From positions 160,022,001-160,086,000 of the forward strand of contig OZ024743.1 of NCBI GenBank assembly GCA_964016885.1: a DNA stretch of 64,000 bases, written 5' to 3'. Under the pieces are notes generated by a model. It had not been told where the DNA came from. It saw nothing but the letters and a program-made list of their open reading frames with translations, and did not search any database. The DNA is from Eledone cirrhosa. Its lineage: Eukaryota. Below, piece by piece: positions 5,109 through 58,332 of the stretch (the stretch's first letter is position 1; every line of letters begins with the position of its first letter). The translations under genes were made by a program, and so were the position numbers.

Positions 5109-5395
5109 CATGTATATATATATATATATATATAGTGGCCGGCCGTTGCAGAAACAAAACCACGCATTCGGCCGGCCCCCCGCGTCATGAAAAGAAAAAA
5201 TATTTCGAGGAAATTATTGGATTTTTCCAAATTTAAATGTTTCTTAGGATCTTTCAATGTTTATTTTAGGTTTTGCCGTCCAAAGAGCTCAGGCTATCAT
5301 AAATGATAGTCATTAGTAGAATATATGTAACGGAGTTTTAAATAAACTCGAATCAACTGAATATGGCCTCAGATCTTTTATCAATATATATATAG

Positions 5396-5775
5396 ATTAA
5401 TAAAAGGAATTCCAACTTTGTCTGATTTACTCGTTTTATTTACAATCCTTTAACATTTATAATAGTATTAGAATGAAATAGTATGGTAGAATATTAAATG
5501 TTAAGTGTTAATTGAACAAGTACTTTCATGCTTTCGCAATCTTCAGGTTCATAATCTGTGGTGACAGTCAAGTTTGCAATTTTCAAATGTGTAATAGTTG
5601 AAAATTGCAAACTTGACTGTCACCACACATTATGAACCTGAAGTTTGCGAAAGCATGAAAGTACATTTAACATTTAATATTCTACCATACTATTTCATTC
5701 TAATACTATTATAAATGTTAAAGGATTGTAAATAAAAGGAGTAAATCAGACAAAGTTGGAATTCCTTTTATTAAT
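5396..5775. mobile_element. ~380 bp fold-back PLE pseudo-LTR remnant
   Basis: Near-perfect inverted arms centred near 5590; contains an HHR on the minus strand and a truncated plus-strand copy at 5633-5665. Confidence 0.8.
5513..5551 (-). ncRNA. Intact minimal type I hammerhead ribozyme
   Basis: tgaac-CTGAAGA-ttgcgaaagcat-GAAA-gtac-TT-gttca. Confidence 0.9.
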
Positions 5776-5824
5776 ATAATCTTCTATACACAATCATACA
5801 CACCCGTGTATATTTATCTCTCTC

Positions 5825-6009: not shown

Positions 6010-6054
<45 letters not shown>

Positions 6055-6139
6055 GATAAATCTACCAAAATATACGGTAGTGTCCAATCCGTATGAAGAA
6101 CTTAATGTAATCCAAATATCATGGAAAGAGAAGATGTAT

Positions 6140-6277
6140 TCATCATTTTACGATCGTTTCTAGGATATATATGTGTGTGTTGGTATGTATATCATATAGA
6201 TCTATGTAAATTTTTTACAAACTATCAGAGAAAATATACATACCTACACATATATATGCTGTCTTCAGAAATAATGA
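6140..6277 (-). ncRNA. Hammerhead ribozyme with ~101-nt helix II
   Basis: tcattattt-CTGAAGA-[atatatatgtgt/acacatatatat and ggtatgtatat/atatacatacc stems]-GAAA-cgatcg-TA-aaatgatga. Confidence 0.8.
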
Positions 6278-7044
6278 TATTTGTTTATTGAAAAAAAACA
6301 ACAAAGATTTAATATAATAGGTCTGTTTGGGAACAGATTTTGAATTGACCAATAGAAAGGTAGTAAGTGGTCAAGATGATAGAATAGTAGTAATAGAAAT
6401 TTAATTTAGTGCTATAGGAAAGCAGACTTCAGTTTTGAATGGAAAGAGTATTTTGAATGAAAAGATTACTTTGGGGATGAAAATAGATAAAGCCGGTGAA
6501 AGGTACACGAACATTTGATGTTATAAAGAATAATGCTAATGTTAAAATCTAAGGAGAATAACATTTTACGATAAATGTGTTAGTGAAAAATATCAATCTT
6601 ATTTAAAGCATAAGGAATTTACATCTATAAAAAGAAAATAAATTAATTTCATTGATAGGTATATTTTCTATTGATAAATTTATATTAATTCATATAGATA
6701 TGATAAATAAGAGTTAGATGTTATTGAAGAATGTTGTTAAAAACAAAGGGAAAGAAGATAAATGTTTGTTGGGGGGGGGGGGGCTAAATGTATTAGTGAG
6801 AAATAACAAATTTATATAGATTACAAGGAATATAGATTCATAACGTGAAATTAAAATAGTTTATATGTATACTTATTGGTATAAATTTTAGGAAAAGATA
6901 GCTGTAAAAGGGAAATAAAATTATGCAGTTCATTAGTAGTAGAATATTAATTATAGGAAAAGTTCTTCTAATTTTATGATTACATGATATAATTAATTCT
7001 TGTCGCTTATTTAATAGGATATCCTTAGATTTAATTATTTCAAA

Positions 7045-8853
7045 ATATGCGACCTTTTATAACGAAGCTTTAGCTAGAAGCGGCCACAAAAAGAAATTAG
7101 TATATATACCTTGTACCAATAATACTACAAACATACAACCCAATATTACTGTGCATTTTCCCTTATTGCGCTGCATTTTCCCCCTACACATAAATATATT
7201 AACATTTTTAATAGAAATACTATTAAAATGTCTTACTCTACGACTCCTAACCTTGCACATAACATCACAGCTTCAAATTTAGCTTAACTACCTAGCCGTA
7301 GGAACACGTGCAACCCTGTATTTAGTACTAACTGTAATTGTAGGAATCGGGTTGATTGCCCCCATCCGGTAAATGCCTCTCTAGTAACATTGTCTACAAA
7401 TGTAAGGTTGAAACACCCACATCCCGTAGGGCCTACATACGGTTAACCGCCAACAGATTCAAGCAGCGTCTTTACATGCATACCCATTCTTTTCGTTACC
7501 CTCTAAGAAGGGATATGACGTCAATTTCAGCTTATACCTGGAGTCAAAAAGACAACCTCATCCAATTTAAGTTACACTGGGAGATCCTAGCTAGTGCTAG
7601 ATTGTATAACGGAAATAAAAGACCATGTGACCTCTGCGCTGCTGAGGCCCTGTTAATACTCTACGCCACAGACCACATCTTAAACAAAAAGTCTGAGGCA
7701 ATTTCGGCTTGTAAACATGAATTGCACAAAGCTTTCCTGTATTACAGACCCACATTATACCCTAACGGATAGTACGATCTATACGTGGATATTTTACGTC
7801 TTGATGTGGTAGCTAAGTATATGTTTTGTTTATACCATCACTTATTTGCATAGGTAAGTATATATTACCTGTATGTTTTGTGAAGGTACGTATACCTTCT
7901 CGTACGTATATTTGTTTGTGTATGTTATGGCGTATAATTTAATATATTCTGGTACATATGGTTTGGTTATGTGTATACGGGAGTTTTGCGTCTGCGTGAG
8001 TATGCAGGTTCCTAGGTATGTATGGTGTGTGTATATGAGTACTTCATGTTTTGGTTGACTTACGTCTCCGAACATTTGTTTATTTACATGTAGGTATGTG
8101 TGTGCGCTTGTTATATACGTATGTATTTATTTATATACGTTTCTTTAATTATTTATTGATTTGTATACACGTACACACAGACACATATTTATATATGCGC
8201 GATTTTGTATACCTATGGCAAGTGTTTTGCGTATGCTTGTGTATGTACGTATTTGCATGCATGTATGCATTTATTTAATTTCTATTACCTCGCTATTGTG
8301 TTTATTTACTTTATTCTTTACTCTGAAGCGGAGATTCATTAGGTTTCCTAATAAGAATTTAGTCTACAACTTCAGCTATACCATTTACGTGGTTTTGTCT
8401 TTGCGTGCAAATGTTCCACAAGCTCCTCATATCACGTATTAATCTTCGTTTTTTCCGTTCATTGCCAGAGAACGTCTCTATGAACCACCTAAGAGAACAT
8501 TAGTCTACGACCTCTTTTATACCATAAACGTGGTTCTGTCTTTGCGCGTAATTAATGACGTATTATATTCGTTTTTCCCATTCTTTGCCAGGGAACGTTT
8601 CCACGAACCAAAGTATCGTCTCCTTGTCTTCCTCCGGTTGCAACGTTTTTTGAAATATCCACTTCTGCGTTTACAGATTGACTTTGTTAGTTTCAGAAGA
8701 TCCCGTTAAGGGTGAAAGCAGAGATTCTTTGCTTAAACTTTAATCTGTTATTTTAATAAATATTTGCTCTACGGTTCTTATATATTTGATATATATTTAT
8801 CCTTATCGAGCCCTCTTTGGATTTTAGTCTTCAAATTTATTATTATTACTACA
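7045..8853 (+). mobile_element. 5'-truncated PLE, family B (degenerate GIY-YIG, 3' UTR, pseudo-LTR)
   Basis: NCNCRN..CP..GKCLSSNIVYKC..AYI..RFKQRLY.H..CDLC..E in ORF 7356-7772; colinear with the minus copy at 23617-25300; internal ~140-bp duplication at 8355-8610; ends near (TA)n. Confidence 0.9.
8689..8739 (+). ncRNA. Hammerhead-like motif with CAGAAGA core, family B
   Basis: agttt-CAGAAGA-tcccgttaagggt-GAAA-gcagagattctttgc-TT-aaact. Confidence 0.7.
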
Positions 8854-14273: not shown

Positions 14274-14362
14274 TTCCAAACGATCGTTTCATTATGTGTT
14301 TTCTACAAGTTGGGAAAATAATGTCCAGGTTATGTAGAAGCCAACACATAGTCCATAGGAAT
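14274..14362 (-). ncRNA. Degenerate hammerhead with ~60-nt helix II
   Basis: Strong helix tatgtgtt..ttctaca/tgtagaa.aacacata then GAAA-cgatcg-TT; 5' core decayed to CTATGGA. Confidence 0.4.
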
Positions 14363-14405
14363 ATATGCAGGTGGGCACTTAAATCATCAGTGGATGCCCA
14401 ACAAT

Positions 14406-14584: not shown

Positions 14585-15415
14585 AGAGAACATTTGAAGT
14601 TGGAAATAGCACGTAAAATATATTTACGGGTCTGTTTTTATTTTTCTTTCGTTGATTCGTCAAAGTGACATTATTGAAAAGATAACATTATTGAAATAAT
14701 GTTAAAGGGCGGTGGATTGGCAGTATCGGTAGAGCATCGGACGCCATGCTTTCCAGCATAGTTACGTCCTTTTACGATCAGAGTTCAGATCCCGCCGAGG
14801 TTGACTTTGCCTAGAATAAAGTACCAGTAATGCACTGGATAATTGCTGGCCTTGTGCCTAAAGTAGAAACAATTATTGAAATAATGAGAGAGACAATTCT
14901 TTTTTAAAAAGTTTTATAATGTATATAAAGAATATAAAATATTTCCGGTTTCGATGTATTATTAAAATTGATCTTATCTATAAATGTTGAAATAAAAATT
15001 GAAAATAATTAATAGGAATTAAAAACTAAATATTAAAGATTTATAATTAAAATCAATGTATTTTCTCCAGACAAATGTTGAGCAAGAAATATGGAAGCAA
15101 ACTTACTCCAACATTTGATTTTAATTTTAAATCTTTAATTTTCAGTTTTTAAATCCTGTTAATTCTTTTTAATTTTTATTTCAATACTCAACATTTGATA
15201 AGATGTATTTTAATAATACATCGAAACCGGTAATTCTTCATATAATTCATATACATTATAAAACATTTTTTTAAAAAGAATTGTCCCTCTCATTTTTTCA
15301 ATAATGTTATCTTTTCAATAATTCACTTTGACGATTCAACGAAAGGACAAAAAAAAAAGAAAAACATACCTTTAAATATATTTTCCATGCTATTTAAAAC
15401 TTCACCTTTTCTCTA
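14585..15415. mobile_element. Old fold-back PLE remnant with decayed HHR pair, interrupted by a SINE
   Basis: 14585-15060 is inverted relative to 15110-15415; TTGATAA-gatgtatt..aatacatc-GAAA-ccgg-TA at 15195-15232. Confidence 0.7.
14702..14871 (+). mobile_element. tRNA-derived SINE with 15-bp TSD
   Basis: TSD attattgaaataatg at 14687-14701 and 14872-14886; absent from the opposite inverted arm. Confidence 0.92.
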
Positions 15416-17716: not shown

Positions 17717-17798
17717 GATAAATCTACCCTAGAAACGATCGTTAAATAATGAACTTTTTTTGTTTAATATAAGGAATTGTTTATTCATTATTTGTTTA

Positions 17799-17889
<91 letters not shown>

Positions 17890-19799: not shown

Positions 19800-19916
19800 T
19801 TATTGACACGTGTTTCTATAACAGTTACATAACCTAAAACAGCTATCTACAAACTTTTAGTTATGCAGACATTCAATATTTCAATGTTATTATTTACTGT
19901 CATTTCATCAGAATAA
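19800..19916 (-). ncRNA. Hammerhead ribozyme with 88-nt helix II (inverted copy)
   Basis: Reverse complement of 22581-22697. Confidence 0.85.
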
Positions 19917-20120
19917 TATTACTGAGGACCTATTTAGTTTTTATAGAGAATATTAGGAGGGAGGGGTGAAGTTGTTAGAAGAATAGTTGAAGGAGTGGTT
20001 TTTCGATAGCAGTGAGAATTCTTGGTGGCAGTGAGTAATTAGATTCCCATCTGTTGTTTTGACATTTTTTATAGAATATATTATTGGTTATTTTTCTAAA
20101 TCTATAGAAGGATTGAAACT

Positions 20121-21632
20121 TTGAATAGAGCCATTAAGTTTGCTAAGGATAACTCTGACCTTACAAACGATGAAATTAAGATTATATTAGAAGCTAGGAA
20201 AACTATAGTCAAATTTGAGAACAGTTATTGGGTACGTAAAGATAGACCCTCTAACTTTGACATAACAATGGGCTCTAACGATTCGGCGGAAATAACTGAT
20301 ATTGTGGGGTTATTTATCGCCTTTAGACTCCAGGAAAAATTCAGCAATCTCCACGGCGGAATATACCGCGACGATGTTCTCCTCCTAGCTAAAAACCTTA
20401 ATAACCAAAAACTAGAAAAACTACGCAAAGATATAAGAAAACTACTACTCGAAATAGGACTAACTATAACATATGAATACAACCTTAAAGTAGTTAACTT
20501 CCTGGATGTCACACTCAATTTAAACTCTGGTTTGATTAAACCGTTTCATAAATTGAATGAAAATCTCAAATACGTAAATGTTGGGTCTAACCACCCCATC
20601 TCTATAATTAAATCTATCCCTAAAAATATTTCCCTTAGAATCTCGGGTCTATCTTCTAACATACAAGTATTTAAGGAACACGCCGAGTACTACGATAACG
20701 CCCTTAGTAAAGCAGGCTACCTCAACAAAATAGAGTACATAGATGGGAACAATCAAAACACCCAAAATAAATCCCACATAGGTAGATATAATAACACAAC
20801 ACCAAACCACACTTACTACCATAGTATGCACACCAGTAAACCAACAAACAAAACTAATAGAAAGCGATGCAAAGAGTACTTATGGTATAGCCCCGAATAC
20901 AATAGCTCCATTAGTACAAATTTACCAGTACTCTTCTTTAAAATAATTAAAAGACATTTTCCCACATCACACAAATACCACAAAATCCTAAACCCTACCA
21001 CTATAAGACTGTCATACTCTACAGCGTTAAACCTTGAACAACACATAAAAAAGATCAATACTAGAAGGTTAAACGAAAACACTAAGAACTTAAGTACAAA
21101 GAACCCCAAAAAAACAGTAGACAATACACTACAGAACATAAATATACCACACCTAAGTTCGTCCGCAATACTACTCCAGAGAAAACCCAACGTACACAAC
21201 TGTAACTGCACCTATCCTGACAACTGCCCCCTCGGCAATAACTGCCTGGAAAAAAATATTATTTATAAGTGTACCATTAAATCCGGAGGCAACGAGTGGT
21301 ATTACGTGGGATCAACGGCAACATCGTTTAAATCTCGATTGTATAGGCATTCTTACTCAATAAAACACCAGAGCCAAAGAAATGTAACAACTTTAGCAGA
21401 AAAAGCTTGGACGCTCAGGGATAGCAATCAAAAGTTTACCCTAAAATGGGAAAAATTAGCTAAAACCCAAAGCTTTTCCAGGAGCCAAAATTTCTGCAAA
21501 TTGTGTAATCTTGAGATTTATTACATAATCACACACAAGAAGAAACTGCTGAATAACAGAATTGAACGAACATTATTCTGCCGTCACAGAACTAAAACCC
21601 TTTTTTCCCACTACAAGCAGAATATTACATAA
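20121..21632 (+). CDS. PLE polyprotein, N-terminally truncated: RT C-terminal half plus GIY-YIG endonuclease
   Basis: FDITMGSNDSAEI.DIVG, GIYRDD, NFLDVTLNL, CNC..PDNCPLG.NCL, IIYKC..YYVGST..FKSRLY.H, CKLCNLE, NNR.E..CRH. The frame begins at the inversion junction, so the start codon is not native. Confidence 0.92.
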   Translation: MNRAIKFAKDNSDLTNDEIKIILEARKTIVKFENSYWVRKDRPSNFDITMGSNDSAEITDIVGLFIAFRLQEKFSNLHGGIYRDDVLLLAKNLNNQKLEKLRKDIRKLLLEIGLTITYEYNLKVVNFLDVTLNLNSGLIKPFHKLNENLKYVNVGSNHPISIIKSIPKNISLRISGLSSNIQVFKEHAEYYDNALSKAGYLNKIEYIDGNNQNTQNKSHIGRYNNTTPNHTYYHSMHTSKPTNKTNRKRCKEYLWYSPEYNSSISTNLPVLFFKIIKRHFPTSHKYHKILNPTTIRLSYSTALNLEQHIKKINTRRLNENTKNLSTKNPKKTVDNTLQNINIPHLSSSAILLQRKPNVHNCNCTYPDNCPLGNNCLEKNIIYKCTIKSGGNEWYYVGSTATSFKSRLYRHSYSIKHQSQRNVTTLAEKAWTLRDSNQKFTLKWEKLAKTQSFSRSQNFCKLCNLEIYYIITHKKKLLNNRIERTLFCRHRTKTLFSHYKQNIT

Positions 21633-22580: not shown

Positions 22581-22697
22581 TTATTCTGATGAAATGACAG
22601 TAAATAATAACATTGAAATATTGAATGTCTGCATAACTAAAAGTTTGTAGATAGCTGTTTTAGGTTATGTAACTGTTATAGAAACACGTGTCAATAA
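22581..22697 (+). ncRNA. Hammerhead ribozyme with 88-nt helix II and GUC cleavage triplet
   Basis: ttatt-CTGATGA-a atgacagt...actgttat a-GAAA-cacgtg-TC-aataa. Confidence 0.85.
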
Positions 22698-30552: not shown

Positions 30553-30640
<88 letters not shown>

Positions 30641-30642
<2 letters not shown>

Positions 30643-30827
30643 AGCTTTGGCCGTATTTTTAGTAAAGAACTTCCAGTCTGATAGAGGGGTTTAGAACCCT
30701 CTAAGAAATGGAAAAAGATGAGTATTGCCGAACATGTACGTCAATACTCATCTTTTTCCATTTCTTAGAGGCTTCTAATCTCCACTATCAGACTAAAATT
30801 TCTGTAGTCAAATACGGTGAATGCTTC
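30641..30827. repeat. ~190-bp imperfect fold-back
   Basis: ctctaagaaatggaaaaagatgagtattg and caatactcatctttttccatttcttagag form perfect inner arms. Confidence 0.85.
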
Positions 30828-31055
30828 TATTTAAAATTCGTTCGCTGTTTAAGAAAAAGTCTTGCTTATATATATATATATTAAAAAACACAAACAAATA
30901 ATCAAAGTTGTTGGTCACACGATTCCCTAGAAATGCATAGCGAAAGGCCTTCTAAATGTTTTTAAATAAGCATACATTACATTATTAAATATAAAATACG
31001 TACATTCATTATTTTAGAGCACCAATACAAATTTCTAATTCATGCTGGGCCGGGA

Positions 31056-36066: not shown

Positions 36067-36127
36067 TTTCATTTACCAGTGGTTTCTTAAAAGCAAAAAA
36101 ATGTTGCTTTCAATCATCAGAATGAAA
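36067..36127 (-). ncRNA. Type I hammerhead ribozyme, family F (inverted copy)
   Basis: tttcatt-CTGATGA-ttgaaagcaa..ttgcttttaa-GAAA-ccactgg-TA-aatgaaa. Confidence 0.9.
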
Positions 36128-43042: not shown

Positions 43043-43147
<105 letters not shown>

Positions 43148-43540
43148 TATAAGAACAAAAGATGGTTAAAAGAGTTCCATGTATTTTATTATGCGCATTT
43201 CAAAAACAAATATCATCATGCAATAATATTTGTGTTTTCATCAGATAAAACAGGAAGACATGATATGAAGGTTAAAAAACACTTGTCGATAGTGCAGTTT
43301 TAAATCAACAAGTGTTTTTTAACCTTCATATCTTGTCTTCCTGTTTTATCTGATGAAAACACAAATATTATTGCATGATGATATTTGTTTTTGAAATGCG
43401 CATAATAAAATACATGGAACTCTTTTAACCATCTTTTGTTCTTATATATTATGTATACTCCAGTCCTACAAACTGTAGAGTGCTTCTTATCCGATATCTG
43501 CATTGCTTTATTGTACTACAATAAAACTCACCTCCTACAT
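43148..43540. mobile_element. Family G2 fold-back with two intact HHRs (43184-43250 minus, 43344-43410 plus)
   Basis: 43148-43285 inverted to 43309-43447; tail to 43538; (TA)n flanks. Confidence 0.9.
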
Positions 43541-44854: not shown

Positions 44855-44915
44855 TTTCATTCTGATGATTGAAAGCAACATTTTTTTGCTTTTAAGAAAC
44901 CACTGGTAAATGAAA
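44855..44915 (+). ncRNA. Type I hammerhead ribozyme, family F
   Basis: tttcatt-CTGATGA-ttgaaagcaacatttttttgcttttaa-GAAA-ccactgg-TA-aatgaaa. Confidence 0.9.
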
Positions 44916-45009: not shown

Positions 45010-45047
<38 letters not shown>

Positions 45048-45052
<5 letters not shown>

Positions 45053-46984
45053 ACGTTAAGAACGGCGTTCGTGAAAGTGAAAGTCAATTTTTTGATAAGT
45101 GAATATGTTTTTTGTTTTTTTTTACAATGAAAGTGTACACACGAAATTGTATGGATTTCTTAAAATATATATATGTGTGGGTGTGTATATGTGTGTATAT
45201 ATGTGTGTACACTGTGAATTTGTTTGTTTATTTACAACAGGTCTCTATAGTGATATGGTGTTAATTAGTATTGCGTGTGTGATTCTTTTTCTTTTTCTTT
45301 TTTTGTGTATTGTGTGTACGGAAAATTTTTTTTTAAATAATGACATTGTGTGTTGAAATAAATAAATTTGTTTTAAATAACTACATAGTTAGACGTTTGT
45401 TGCATATAACATATAAATTGACGTACCTTATCAACATCCTTATTAGACCGTATAAATAGCTGAAATACAGTTGATCATCTCGCCAAACTTCTTTGCACCA
45501 ACTCTCTGCCGCCAAAGAAATTCAGCTAAATATGAGGGGAATAAAGCGTCGCTTGTCCCATGTTGTCGACGAAGCTTTTTCTTTGCACGGCTCCAAGTGT
45601 TCTCTATGAGTTGTGTGTGCACATTAGGGTCTTCAGGATCGACAAAGTTCCGTTGGCGCACAACAACATCATGGAGGTAAATGCCACCTTGAATGTCTTC
45701 AATATCAGAATAGGAAGCCCAACCATCATGATGTGGCTTCCTGGCAAAATCCATTCCTGTATGATGGGGACAAGAGTCTCACGGCTTCGATCTGGGACTT
45801 CGATGAGGCAGCAGCGTCCAGAATGGCGTTCTACAGCGCCGAACACCCAGTGGCCTTGTCTCCACTGGCCACGATGATACTTTCTATGAAAGTATTTTGA
45901 TTCGTCGATCTCTACAATGATCGACGAACCATTCTCATCGAATCCTCCAAGCTGTTGAGGATTCGCCTCCAAATACTGCTCACAGATTTCTCTAAGGAAA
46001 TTGCACCAGTCTATAATTGTCGGCTTGCTAAGTACTGTTTCTCTCATCATCTCAGTTTGGGCATGATCGTTGCACCCCATATACATAATGCCAATAAGTT
46101 GTTCGAGTCGAAGATGGCTTCGATAAAATATAGAATTCCCTCGCACCGATTGACAAAATGTGTCGCGGCAGCATCGCCATCTCCATTTATCAATCCCCTC
46201 AGAATATCTTCTCAATGTGCACGCCTCATTGCAGAGAGAACAAAACACACTGTTCGCCAACAGACGCCGACTCGCAAACCACTGTAACATACACAACGTG
46301 TCACCGTGTATCGCCGGACACAGCGTATACATTGTTTCAAAGTGATTAACAATAGCATTGGTATCCAAAATATCTTCAACTAACTTAACGCGACCAAACC
46401 CTCGTGCAGCCATATTTGATGTGACACTGTATCCAGCCCTTCGGTGCTTCGTTTAGAAAATAAAAAAATGTCCCAGCCCTTCTGACGCCTATCTGCCTTT
46501 CTGACCCCAAGCTGCCCCTCTGACCCAAATCCCTTATCATTCTCTGTCCTTCTTATGACCCGGCTTTAATTTCTTTGTGGACAGATAGTTGGTGCCAACA
46601 ACTTTGGCAAGATATTACAAAAACATCTAAACGATGATGATGACACAAACACATATATATATACAAACACACATATATATATATACATACAGACACACAT
46701 ATATATACACACATATACACACCCACACATATATATATAAGAAAAAATAATCACACACGCAATACTAATTAACACCATATCACTATAGAGACCTGTTGTA
46801 AATAAACAAACAAATTCACAGTGTACACACATATATACACACATATACACACCCACACATATATATATTTTAATGAATCCATACAATTGCGTGTGTATCG
46901 TAACTTTCACTGTAAAAAAAAAAAAAAATTTACTTGTCAAAAAATTTACTTTCACTTTCACGAACGCCGTTCTTAACGTATGTC
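45048..46984 (-). mobile_element. Merlin (IS1595/ISXO2-like) DNA transposon with ~235-bp TIRs
   Basis: TIR GGCATACGTTAAGAACGGCGTTCGTGAAAGTG at 45048-45285, inverted at 46745-46984; flanks compatible with a 9-bp tatatatat TSD. Confidence 0.92.
45443..46413 (-). pseudogene. Merlin DDE transposase with one frameshift near 45730
   Basis: C-x2-C zinc motif, VEIDESKY..RKYHRG..WVFG.VER, PGS.I.[fs]DGW.SY, NFVDP..VHTQ.IENTW. Confidence 0.92.
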
Positions 46985-47269
46985 TATATATATACATTTA
47001 AAAAAAGGAAAATAATGACTTTACTTTTAATTCTAAACAACTTACTTTAATGTTATAATATTATGATTTTACAATTTGGTATATATATATATATATATAT
47101 ATAATTAGAGTTGTAAAGTATATAAATACATACACCTATATATACATACATACACATATCTATACATACAAATAAATAAAATATATCCATGCACGCACAC
47201 ACACACACATACGTACATACACACACACAAACACACACGCACACACATCCACACATACATACAAGGAGG

Positions 47270-57963: not shown

Positions 57964-58104
57964 TTAAATTGAAGTGAAAGCAGCTGTTGCATGTGTTTCT
58001 TATTGGCAACATGACCCTCCCAAAGTATAACAATATCGGTTTCAACACACGTTTTCAGATAAAGAAACTTGCTAAACAAATTCAGAAACGACATATATAT
58101 ATAT

Positions 58105-58332
58105 ATTAAAATGACAGATTAAAGTTTAAGCAAAGAATCGCTGCTTTCACCCTTAACGGGATCTTCTGAAATGTTTCAGAAGATCCCGTTAAGGATGAAA
58201 GCAGCGATTATTTGCTTAAACTCTAATCTGTTATTTTAATAAATATTTGCTCTAGTGTTCTTATATATTTGATATATATTTATCCTTATCGAGCCTTCTT
58301 TGGATTTTAGTCTTCAAATTTATTATTATTAC

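What the first reader, a model, noticed from the sequence alone, without database searches (positions are those of the whole stretch)
6140..6277. Second giant-helix-II hammerhead (101 nt) built partly from microsatellite-like sequence
Seen on the minus strand: 9-bp helix I, CUGAAGA, GAAA, palindromic CGAUCG and GUA. The 101-nt helix II is a long rod made of atatatatgtgt/acacatatatat and ggtatgtatat/atatacatacc. The sequence is unrelated to the 22581 family. A decayed motif with the same CGAUCG helix III and a ~60-nt helix II lies at 14274-14362, and a half motif at 17730-17752. Inference: complementary TA/TG-CA microsatellite tracts were recruited as ribozyme stem.
Basis: partly seen in the sequence, partly recalled or inferred. 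Interest (0 to 1): 0.75.

Follow-up and report, generated by a model that had tools for sequence, protein, structure and literature searches.

The report
Long-armed hammerhead of a Hydra retrotransposon
This is the end of a very common Penelope-like jumping gene, carrying a hammerhead motif predicted to cut its own RNA, whose side arm is about four times longer than in published relatives; the arm's repeat-like look likely comes from point changes in an old hairpin, not from captured microsatellites.

Summary
The motif is real: a type I hammerhead with an intact core, a palindromic helix III and a 101-nt rod-like helix II (z -6.1). It lies in the pseudo-LTR of a Hydra-clade Penelope-like element, about 300 nt before and 750 nt after the RT/GIY-YIG ORF. 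The 96-170-nt form has 12,303 genomic pattern matches (control 21).

Microsatellite recruitment is not supported. The AT run stays at four units, three picked slippage copies are uncompensated, a sister subfamily has GC-rich arms at the same place, and deeper-branching relatives already have a long helix II. Pairing is kept by point covariation. The 14274 motif was misparsed: its helix II is 93 nt and belongs to another family.

About a third of copies stop exactly at the 5' arm of helix I, while at most 0.7% could start at the cut site. So the ribozyme likely sits at the RNA's very 5' end, and uncut RNA is what gets copied. Cleavage is untested and no RNA data were available. The scan has noted long-armed Hydra hammerheads and this fixed 5' end before on other DNA. 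Verdict: a new variant of a known kind, of moderate interest.

The parts
6269..6277 (-). Helix I, 5' arm (UCAUUAUUU); A at 6275 is the fixed 5' boundary of many genomic copies
6262..6268 (-). Core CUGAAGA (C3-A9)
   Evidence: invariant but for position 7 in alignment A2
6161..6261 (-). Helix II, 101 nt: C.A mismatch, 2 bp, C.C mismatch, 12-bp stem (6257-6246 with 6176-6165), 12-bp stem (6244-6233 with 6193-6182), apical hairpin
6149..6160 (-). GAAA, palindromic CGAUCG and UA; ACGAUCGU is self-complementary (dimer helix III); predicted cleavage after 6149 (GUA)
   Evidence: duplex -12.0 kcal/mol; the co-fold forms helices I and III between two molecules
6140..6148 (-). Helix I, 3' arm
6052..6139 (-). 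Element tail ending in the hairpin GTAGATTTATCTAC; this copy lacks about 100 nt of the usual tail, including the nearer of the two usual end points
6018..6051 (.). (TA)n target tract at the element's 3' end
6284..6289 (-). AATAAA conserved across the clade, ending 9 nt before the 5' boundary; possible poly(A) signal
6278..6957 (-). 3' UTR of the Penelope-like element (94% to L010)
6958..7045 (-). [quoted passage not shown]
7036..7149 (+). Inverted, truncated ORF piece of the same element, joined head to head
17730..17800 (+). Truncated copy of the same clade (3' half of hammerhead plus tail), joined to an inverted tail hairpin
14276..14393 (-). Hammerhead of a different family (93-nt helix II here, 95 nt and predicted branched in other copies); somewhat decayed

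Best explanation
The sequence is a type I hammerhead motif, predicted to self-cleave weakly and likely only as a dimer, in the pseudo-LTR of a Hydra-clade Penelope-like retrotransposon, and its 101-nt helix II is an inherited hairpin kept paired by point changes that likely only came to resemble a microsatellite. Shown: the same motif stands about 300 nt upstream and about 750 nt downstream of the ORF; about a third of copies end at the A seven bases before CUGA; almost none begin at the cut site. Inferred: the RNA's 5' end (likely an internal-promoter start site) is at that A. Reverse transcription starts in the tail at a (TA)n target and copies uncut RNA; from the 5' pseudo-LTR it runs off the RNA end and folds back, and from the 3' pseudo-LTR it runs on into the 3' UTR and ORF. 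The long helix II is likely a tolerated extension that must stay closed so the core can form; cutting would remove the first ~125 nt and take that RNA out of the template pool.
For: ORF linkage and Hydra diagnostics in L082: RWR, DKT, YRDD, CxCX5C, CxxC, CxH against Craig 2021 section 11. Copy number 12,303 against 21; 96 of 102 recovered matches are this clade. Helix II pairs in 24 chosen rows: 94.8% of 771 cells paired, 6 of 33 pairs with a double change, slid controls 17-69%. Fixed AT units and a GC-rich sister arm. Boundary step: 9465, 9011, 6150, 5924 copies at -6, -7, -8, -9, a 31.7% loss between -7 and -8 against 4.8% and 3.7% beside it. 1,085 fold-back junctions within 60 nt of the arm, control 0. 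42 of 96 copies break within about 25 nt of CUGA, SINE-joined copies not counted. Only 51 of 7,395 copies of the tested subfamilies lack U16 before the 3' arm. Uncut RNA is the dominant template for the Anolis element in vitro (PMC11167929). Penelope has an internal promoter in its pLTR (PMC2377424).
Against: No cleavage assay and no RNA reads. The canonical G10.1-C11.1 pair is replaced by C.A. The monomer starting at -7 is predicted to misfold, with UUUCU pairing to AGAAA and P(helix I) about 0.07, so activity may be very low. By number of pairs with a double change the structure does not beat the shuffle control (77 of 500; 221 of 500); rows are related and were hand-picked. Three copies of the deepest subfamily fold no better than shuffles (z 0.06 to -1.3). 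About a fifth of the boundary step comes from one SINE-joined subfamily (6 of 30 loci). G is not enriched before the boundary (22 of the first 100), as a copied cap might give. The AT-arm clade has 92/93 support, below the strict threshold.
Confidence: 0.7

Rival explanations
1. The arms began as captured or slipped TA/TG-CA microsatellite, long ago, and were later frozen by selection for pairing.
For: Alternating tracts of 16, 15, 10 and 10 nt, matched in 1 of 2000 shuffles. The 678-nt 3' UTR has only one tract of 10 nt or more. The element targets (TA)n. Tracts of 10-12 nt also occur in the deeper subfamilies.
Against: Unit number fixed at 4; slippage uncompensated in 3 of 3 picked copies; GC-rich arm in a sister subfamily; a long helix II in the deeper branches; short-stem families of this genome open helix II with the same GGC-AUA/UAU-CCC and C.C mismatch.
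Confidence: 0.12
2. The fixed 5' boundary is a cleavage/polyadenylation site (AAUAAA...CA), not a transcription start; the template for short copies would be the uncapped downstream fragment.
For: AATAAA is kept across all subfamilies of the clade while the spacer varies, with CA at the boundary. No overall G excess before the boundary.
Against: The signal ends only 9 nt before the boundary, at the short limit (recalled range 10-30). No polyadenylated copy was found (0 matches; a weak test). An untemplated C follows the 7-nt arm in 12 of 53 junction readings against 0 of 38 shorter arms (by-eye tally, Fisher p 0.001), which fits a cap. Most other families lack AATAAA there.
Confidence: 0.25
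3. The motif no longer cleaves; the hairpin is kept for another role such as protein binding, promoter sequence or template handling.
For: C.A at the core-proximal pair; predicted misfold of the monomer; no copies starting at the cut site.
Against: All core bases and the palindrome are invariant across subfamilies whose endonucleases differ by 30-40%. Core-proximal mismatches are common in published Hydra hammerheads.
Confidence: 0.15

Closest known systems
Hydra clade of C-terminal EN+ Penelope-like elements, including Hydra-1_Obim (Craig et al. 2021, PMC8557442; read: passages, section 11, part 2 of 59 of the supplement with File S2)
   Same: RWK-like, DKT, CxCX5C, CxxC and CxH motifs; single ORF; (TA)n targets; sense hammerhead in the pLTR; inverted 5'-truncated partner; two alternative 3' ends; a mismatch next to the core.
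   Different: The spacer between CUGANGA and GAA is 12-26 nt in the 26 Hydra rows of File S2 (about 50 nt in two spike-moss PLE-X rows) against 99-126 nt here. The optional tail is about 110 nt, not 30-40.
Minimal and short-helix-III type I hammerheads of PLEs (Cervera and de la Pena 2014, PMC4209133; read parts 1-2 of 4. Lunse et al. 2017: not held, known only from a review passage in PMC6765202)
   Same: Type I topology, palindromic helix III, predicted dimer cleavage, no obvious loop-loop contact.
   Different: Published helix II is 6-8 bp with a conserved G10.1-C11.1; here about 35 bp in four segments, opening with C.A.
Poseidon element PAc of Anolis (Frangieh et al. 2024, PMC11167929; read passages and the second half of the main text)
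   Same: Hammerhead upstream of internal RT start sites; two start sites define the tail; uncut RNA is the template.
   Different: PAc's ORF starts inside stem II; here the ATG is about 350 nt downstream of the cut site and helix II is non-coding.
5'-UTR type I hammerheads of chrysoviruses (PMC13725137; read passages)
   Same: Type I hammerhead near an RNA 5' end ahead of an ORF.
   Different: Their 'long' helix II is 6 bp and helix III is stable; cleavage-driven translation is shown there and untested here.

Membership tests
Type I hammerhead ribozyme | Core C3 U4 G5 A6 N7 G8 A9, G12 A13 A14, A15.1-U16.1, NUH | tested here: met
Type I hammerhead ribozyme | Helices I and II can form, with helix I open-ended | tested here: met
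   helix I is weak if the RNA starts at -7
Type I hammerhead ribozyme | G10.1-C11.1 (R-Y) pair closing helix II | tested here: not met
   C.A in most copies; published PLE hammerheads also show U.U or C.A there
Type I hammerhead ribozyme | Site-specific self-cleavage | not testable with these tools
   needs an in vitro assay
Dimeric PLE-type hammerhead | Short palindromic helix III allowing a double hammerhead | tested here: met
   ACGAUCGU; co-fold forms helices I and III between molecules; prediction only
Hydra-clade PLE | Single ORF, RT with C-terminal GIY-YIG | tested here: met
   813 aa from the ATG in L082; Pfam gave no significant family, so this rests on motifs
Hydra-clade PLE | RWK, DKT, CxCX5C, CxxC and CxH motifs | tested here: met
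   RWR 37, DKT 115, CxCX5C 673, CxxC 771, CxH 799
Hydra-clade PLE | (TA)n insertion and pLTR with hammerhead | tested here: met
Hydra-clade PLE | Phylogenetic placement with reference Hydra RTs | not tested
   no reference proteins were fetched
Non-LTR retrozyme | Non-coding tandem monomers, each with a hammerhead | tested here: not met
   copies are ORF-linked, single or inverted
Microsatellite-derived stem | Variable unit number, matched on both arms | tested here: not met

The most novel reading that the evidence does not exclude
The long-armed hammerhead is a fate switch at the very 5' end of the retroelement RNA: born misfolded and uncut it is the template for insertion, and once dimerised (with protein help) it cuts off the capped first ~125 nt and turns the RNA into a cap-independent mRNA, with the long rod setting the balance. 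That would answer the open question of what Penelope-like hammerheads are for.
Probability: 0.2. Interest if true: 0.78.

Novelty: new variant of a known kind. Interest (0 to 1): 0.42.

Why it matters
Published descriptors used short spacers (7-17 nt for the core-only search of Craig 2021) and Rfam missed the motif, so more than 15,000 long-armed hammerheads in this genome (12,303 plus 3,041) fall outside standard searches. The copy ends map a fixed RNA 5' end onto helix I and show that cut RNA is not inserted, which makes the disputed role of PLE hammerheads testable in a young family with an intact ORF. The more striking idea, a ribozyme built from microsatellites, does not hold.

Tried and rejected
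Microsatellite recruitment: rejected as the main explanation. The arm-unit table was not used for the 3' arm, because the pattern also caught CA units and left 37 of 152 unparsed.
Cap-derived G before the boundary: no excess in the first 100 of 2,861 (55 A, 23 T, 22 G); only the fold-back tally favours a cap.
Copies starting at the cleavage site: 51 of 7,395 lack U16; of 30 inspected, 7 are point mutants, 7 are joins between the two arms of helix I, and the rest are truncations.
Polyadenylated copies at the AATAAA site: 0 matches.
RNA evidence: no RNA holder listed. Contigs of three runs of unknown kind cannot show starts or cleavage.
Rfam: no hammerhead hit; the miRNA hits are simple-repeat artefacts. 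Pfam: nothing significant.
Helix II as a duplicate of another part of the element: only self matches and simple-repeat matches.
The x-drop extension lengths are inflated in AT-rich flanks, so only the CAATAAA classification was used.
Alignment A2 holds 24 hand-picked rows; 5 of the 29 rows of A1 were dropped (4 misaligned deep-subfamily rows, 1 with a poly-C expansion).
Literature searches for a long helix II in PLE hammerheads, for octopus hammerheads and for microsatellite-derived ribozyme stems found no description. Lunse 2017 and its supplements were not available and could cover long stem II variants.

Full report
Observation. The minus strand of 6277-6140 holds a complete type I hammerhead: 9-bp helix I, CUGAAGA, a 101-nt insert, GAAA, CGAUCG, UA. 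The insert folds as an unbranched rod (-30.9 kcal/mol, z -6.13, 0 of 200 shuffles). It opens with a C.A mismatch, two pairs and a C.C mismatch, then two 12-bp stems and an apical hairpin. My first descriptor, which required three pairs next to the core, missed it for that reason but listed 11 other matches in the window with spacers of 22-36 nt; two of these are the 22581 family, whose true helix II is 88 nt. Rfam reported no hammerhead. The motif at 14274 was misparsed: its CUGAUGA is at 14390, helix II is 93 nt, and other copies have a 95-nt, predicted branched helix II. The half motif at 17730 is a truncated copy of the present clade.

What it belongs to. A DNA search of the 3-Gb genome scored 40 of 411 candidates and listed 41 full matches at 95-100% identity. 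Pattern counts give 12,303 motifs with a 96-170-nt spacer and 1,085 with 20-95 nt, against 21 each for reversed controls. Of 102 matches recovered from the first 39 Mb of C1, 96 are this clade. Upstream, on the same strand and about 700-750 nt away, is a GIY-YIG domain. L082 has the intact 813-aa ORF with the motif also about 350 nt before the ATG. The protein has RWR, DKT, YRDD, CxCX5C, CxxC and CxH, the diagnostics of the Hydra clade in Craig et al. 2021. Copies end in (TA)n at one of two sites, about 70 or about 180 nt past the cut site. The window copy is 5'-truncated at about 7045, joined to an inverted ORF piece, and lacks about 100 nt of tail.

Is the rod selected? In 24 hand-picked rows spanning the subfamilies, 94.8% of 771 helix II cells pair, 6 of 33 pairs show a change on both sides, and slid partners pair 17-69%. 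A-U to G-C swaps occur with G.U intermediates at arm positions 1 and 3. Against this, the count of doubly changed pairs is not above the shuffle control (77 of 500), the rows are related, and three copies of the deepest subfamily fold no better than shuffles.

Is it built from microsatellite? The arms are unusually alternating (1 of 2000 shuffles), but they do not behave as a microsatellite. AT units number 4 in 63 of 69 5' arms and 59 of 69 3' arms and never more. Three copies picked for extra units have 5-6 on the 5' arm and 4 on the 3' arm. A sister subfamily has GGGTAG/CTACCC at the same place and folds as well (z -5.8). In an 18-row endonuclease tree the clade is supported 98/98; the GC-arm subfamily and a deeper one, both with long helix II, lie outside the AT-arm group (92/93). 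Length changes between subfamilies are apical, including a 10-nt tandem unit. Short-stem families in the genome share the three-position stem plus C.C opening. Two other families reach 88-95 nt with unrelated, non-repeat sequence. Long helix II is thus a recurring trait here, and the repeat-like look is likely secondary.

What the copy ends say. Counting copies that match progressively further upstream of CUGA gives 9465 (-6), 9011 (-7), 6150 (-8), 5924 (-9): a 31.7% drop between -7 and -8 against 4.8% and 3.7% on either side. All 30 inspected non-C loci have foreign sequence upstream; 6 belong to a SINE-joined subfamily, likely one event, which inflates the step by about a fifth. There are 1,085 head-to-head junctions within 60 nt of the arm, control 0. 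In the 96-copy sample, 48 keep the natural upstream sequence, 28 are fold-backs, 6 abut (TA)n, 6 the SINE and 8 other sequence. By contrast only 51 of 7,395 copies of the tested subfamilies lack U16 in front of the 3' arm, so cut RNA is essentially never inserted. An untemplated C follows the 7-nt arm in 12 of 53 junction readings and 0 of 38 shorter ones (by-eye tally of the 50 junctions listed; 7 of 18 against 0 of 9 by script on 15 of them). This fits a capped start at TCA(+1)TT, although G is not enriched overall and a conserved AATAAA allows a poly(A)-site reading.

Mechanism. Shown: element identity, position of the motif, pairing, and the two end-point statistics. Inferred: the RNA starts at helix I; reverse transcription primes in the tail at a nicked (TA)n site, as for the Anolis element, and copies uncut RNA. 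Predicted: the monomer starting at -7 misfolds, while two molecules pair through ACGAUCGU into a double hammerhead. Untested: cleavage, its rate with a C.A closing pair, and any role in translation as shown for viral 5'-UTR hammerheads.

Comparison and novelty. PLE hammerheads, dimer cleavage, (TA)n targeting, inverted partners and an internal promoter are all published. Published Hydra spacers are 12-26 nt. My searches found no account of a ~100-nt helix II in these elements, but Lunse 2017 could not be read. I also read part 1 of 5 of bioRxiv 10.64898/2026.07.22.740005 and passages of PMC6155905; neither part mentions it. Earlier scan notes report the same long arms and a fixed 5' end on other DNA. 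Verdict: a new variant of a known kind, interest 0.42.

Noticed in passing
L105, L108-L112 (G000:C1, e.g. 9905436, 17714905): A subfamily in which a SINE-like 3' end (identified from memory, not by a call) is joined exactly at the 5' arm of helix I; 6 of 96 sampled copies, some still ORF-linked.
   Followed up: partly
window 22586-22692 (+) and 19805-19911 (-): Second long-helix-II family (88 nt, CACGUG, GUC) about 950 nt after a 510-aa PLE ORF piece at 20100-21632; 3,041 pattern matches genome-wide against 3.
   Followed up: partly
window 14276-14393 (-); L031-L057: Family with a 95-nt helix II predicted to form a three-way junction, with covarying subfamilies.
   Followed up: partly
window 2904, 4117, 16127, 17344, 37035, 39815, 43182, 43342: Short-stem hammerheads (26-36 nt) with TATATA or TGCGCA palindromes; several share a 3-bp stem followed by a C.C mismatch with the long clade.
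   Followed up: partly
L133, L134, L142, L144, L150, L154, L158: Junctions where an inverted 5' half of the hammerhead runs straight into the 3' arm and tail, a likely template switch through helix I complementarity.
   Followed up: partly
L082:5761-5849: Possible GT-AG intron in the 5' UTR between the tail hairpin and the ATG.
   Followed up: no
window 36067-36127 (-) and 44855-44915 (+): Inverted pair of hammerheads with a non-palindromic 7-nt helix III segment (CCACTGG) flanking about 9 kb.
   Followed up: no
window 5393-5778, 14872-15305, 30640-30828, 43138-43457, 58099-58246: Long palindromes, likely head-to-head retroelement stubs.
   Followed up: no
window 45604-46452 (-): 282-aa ORF resembling an ISXO2/Merlin-type DDE transposase (recalled from its motif) between inverted repeats 45031-45318 and 46716-47000.
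   Followed up: no
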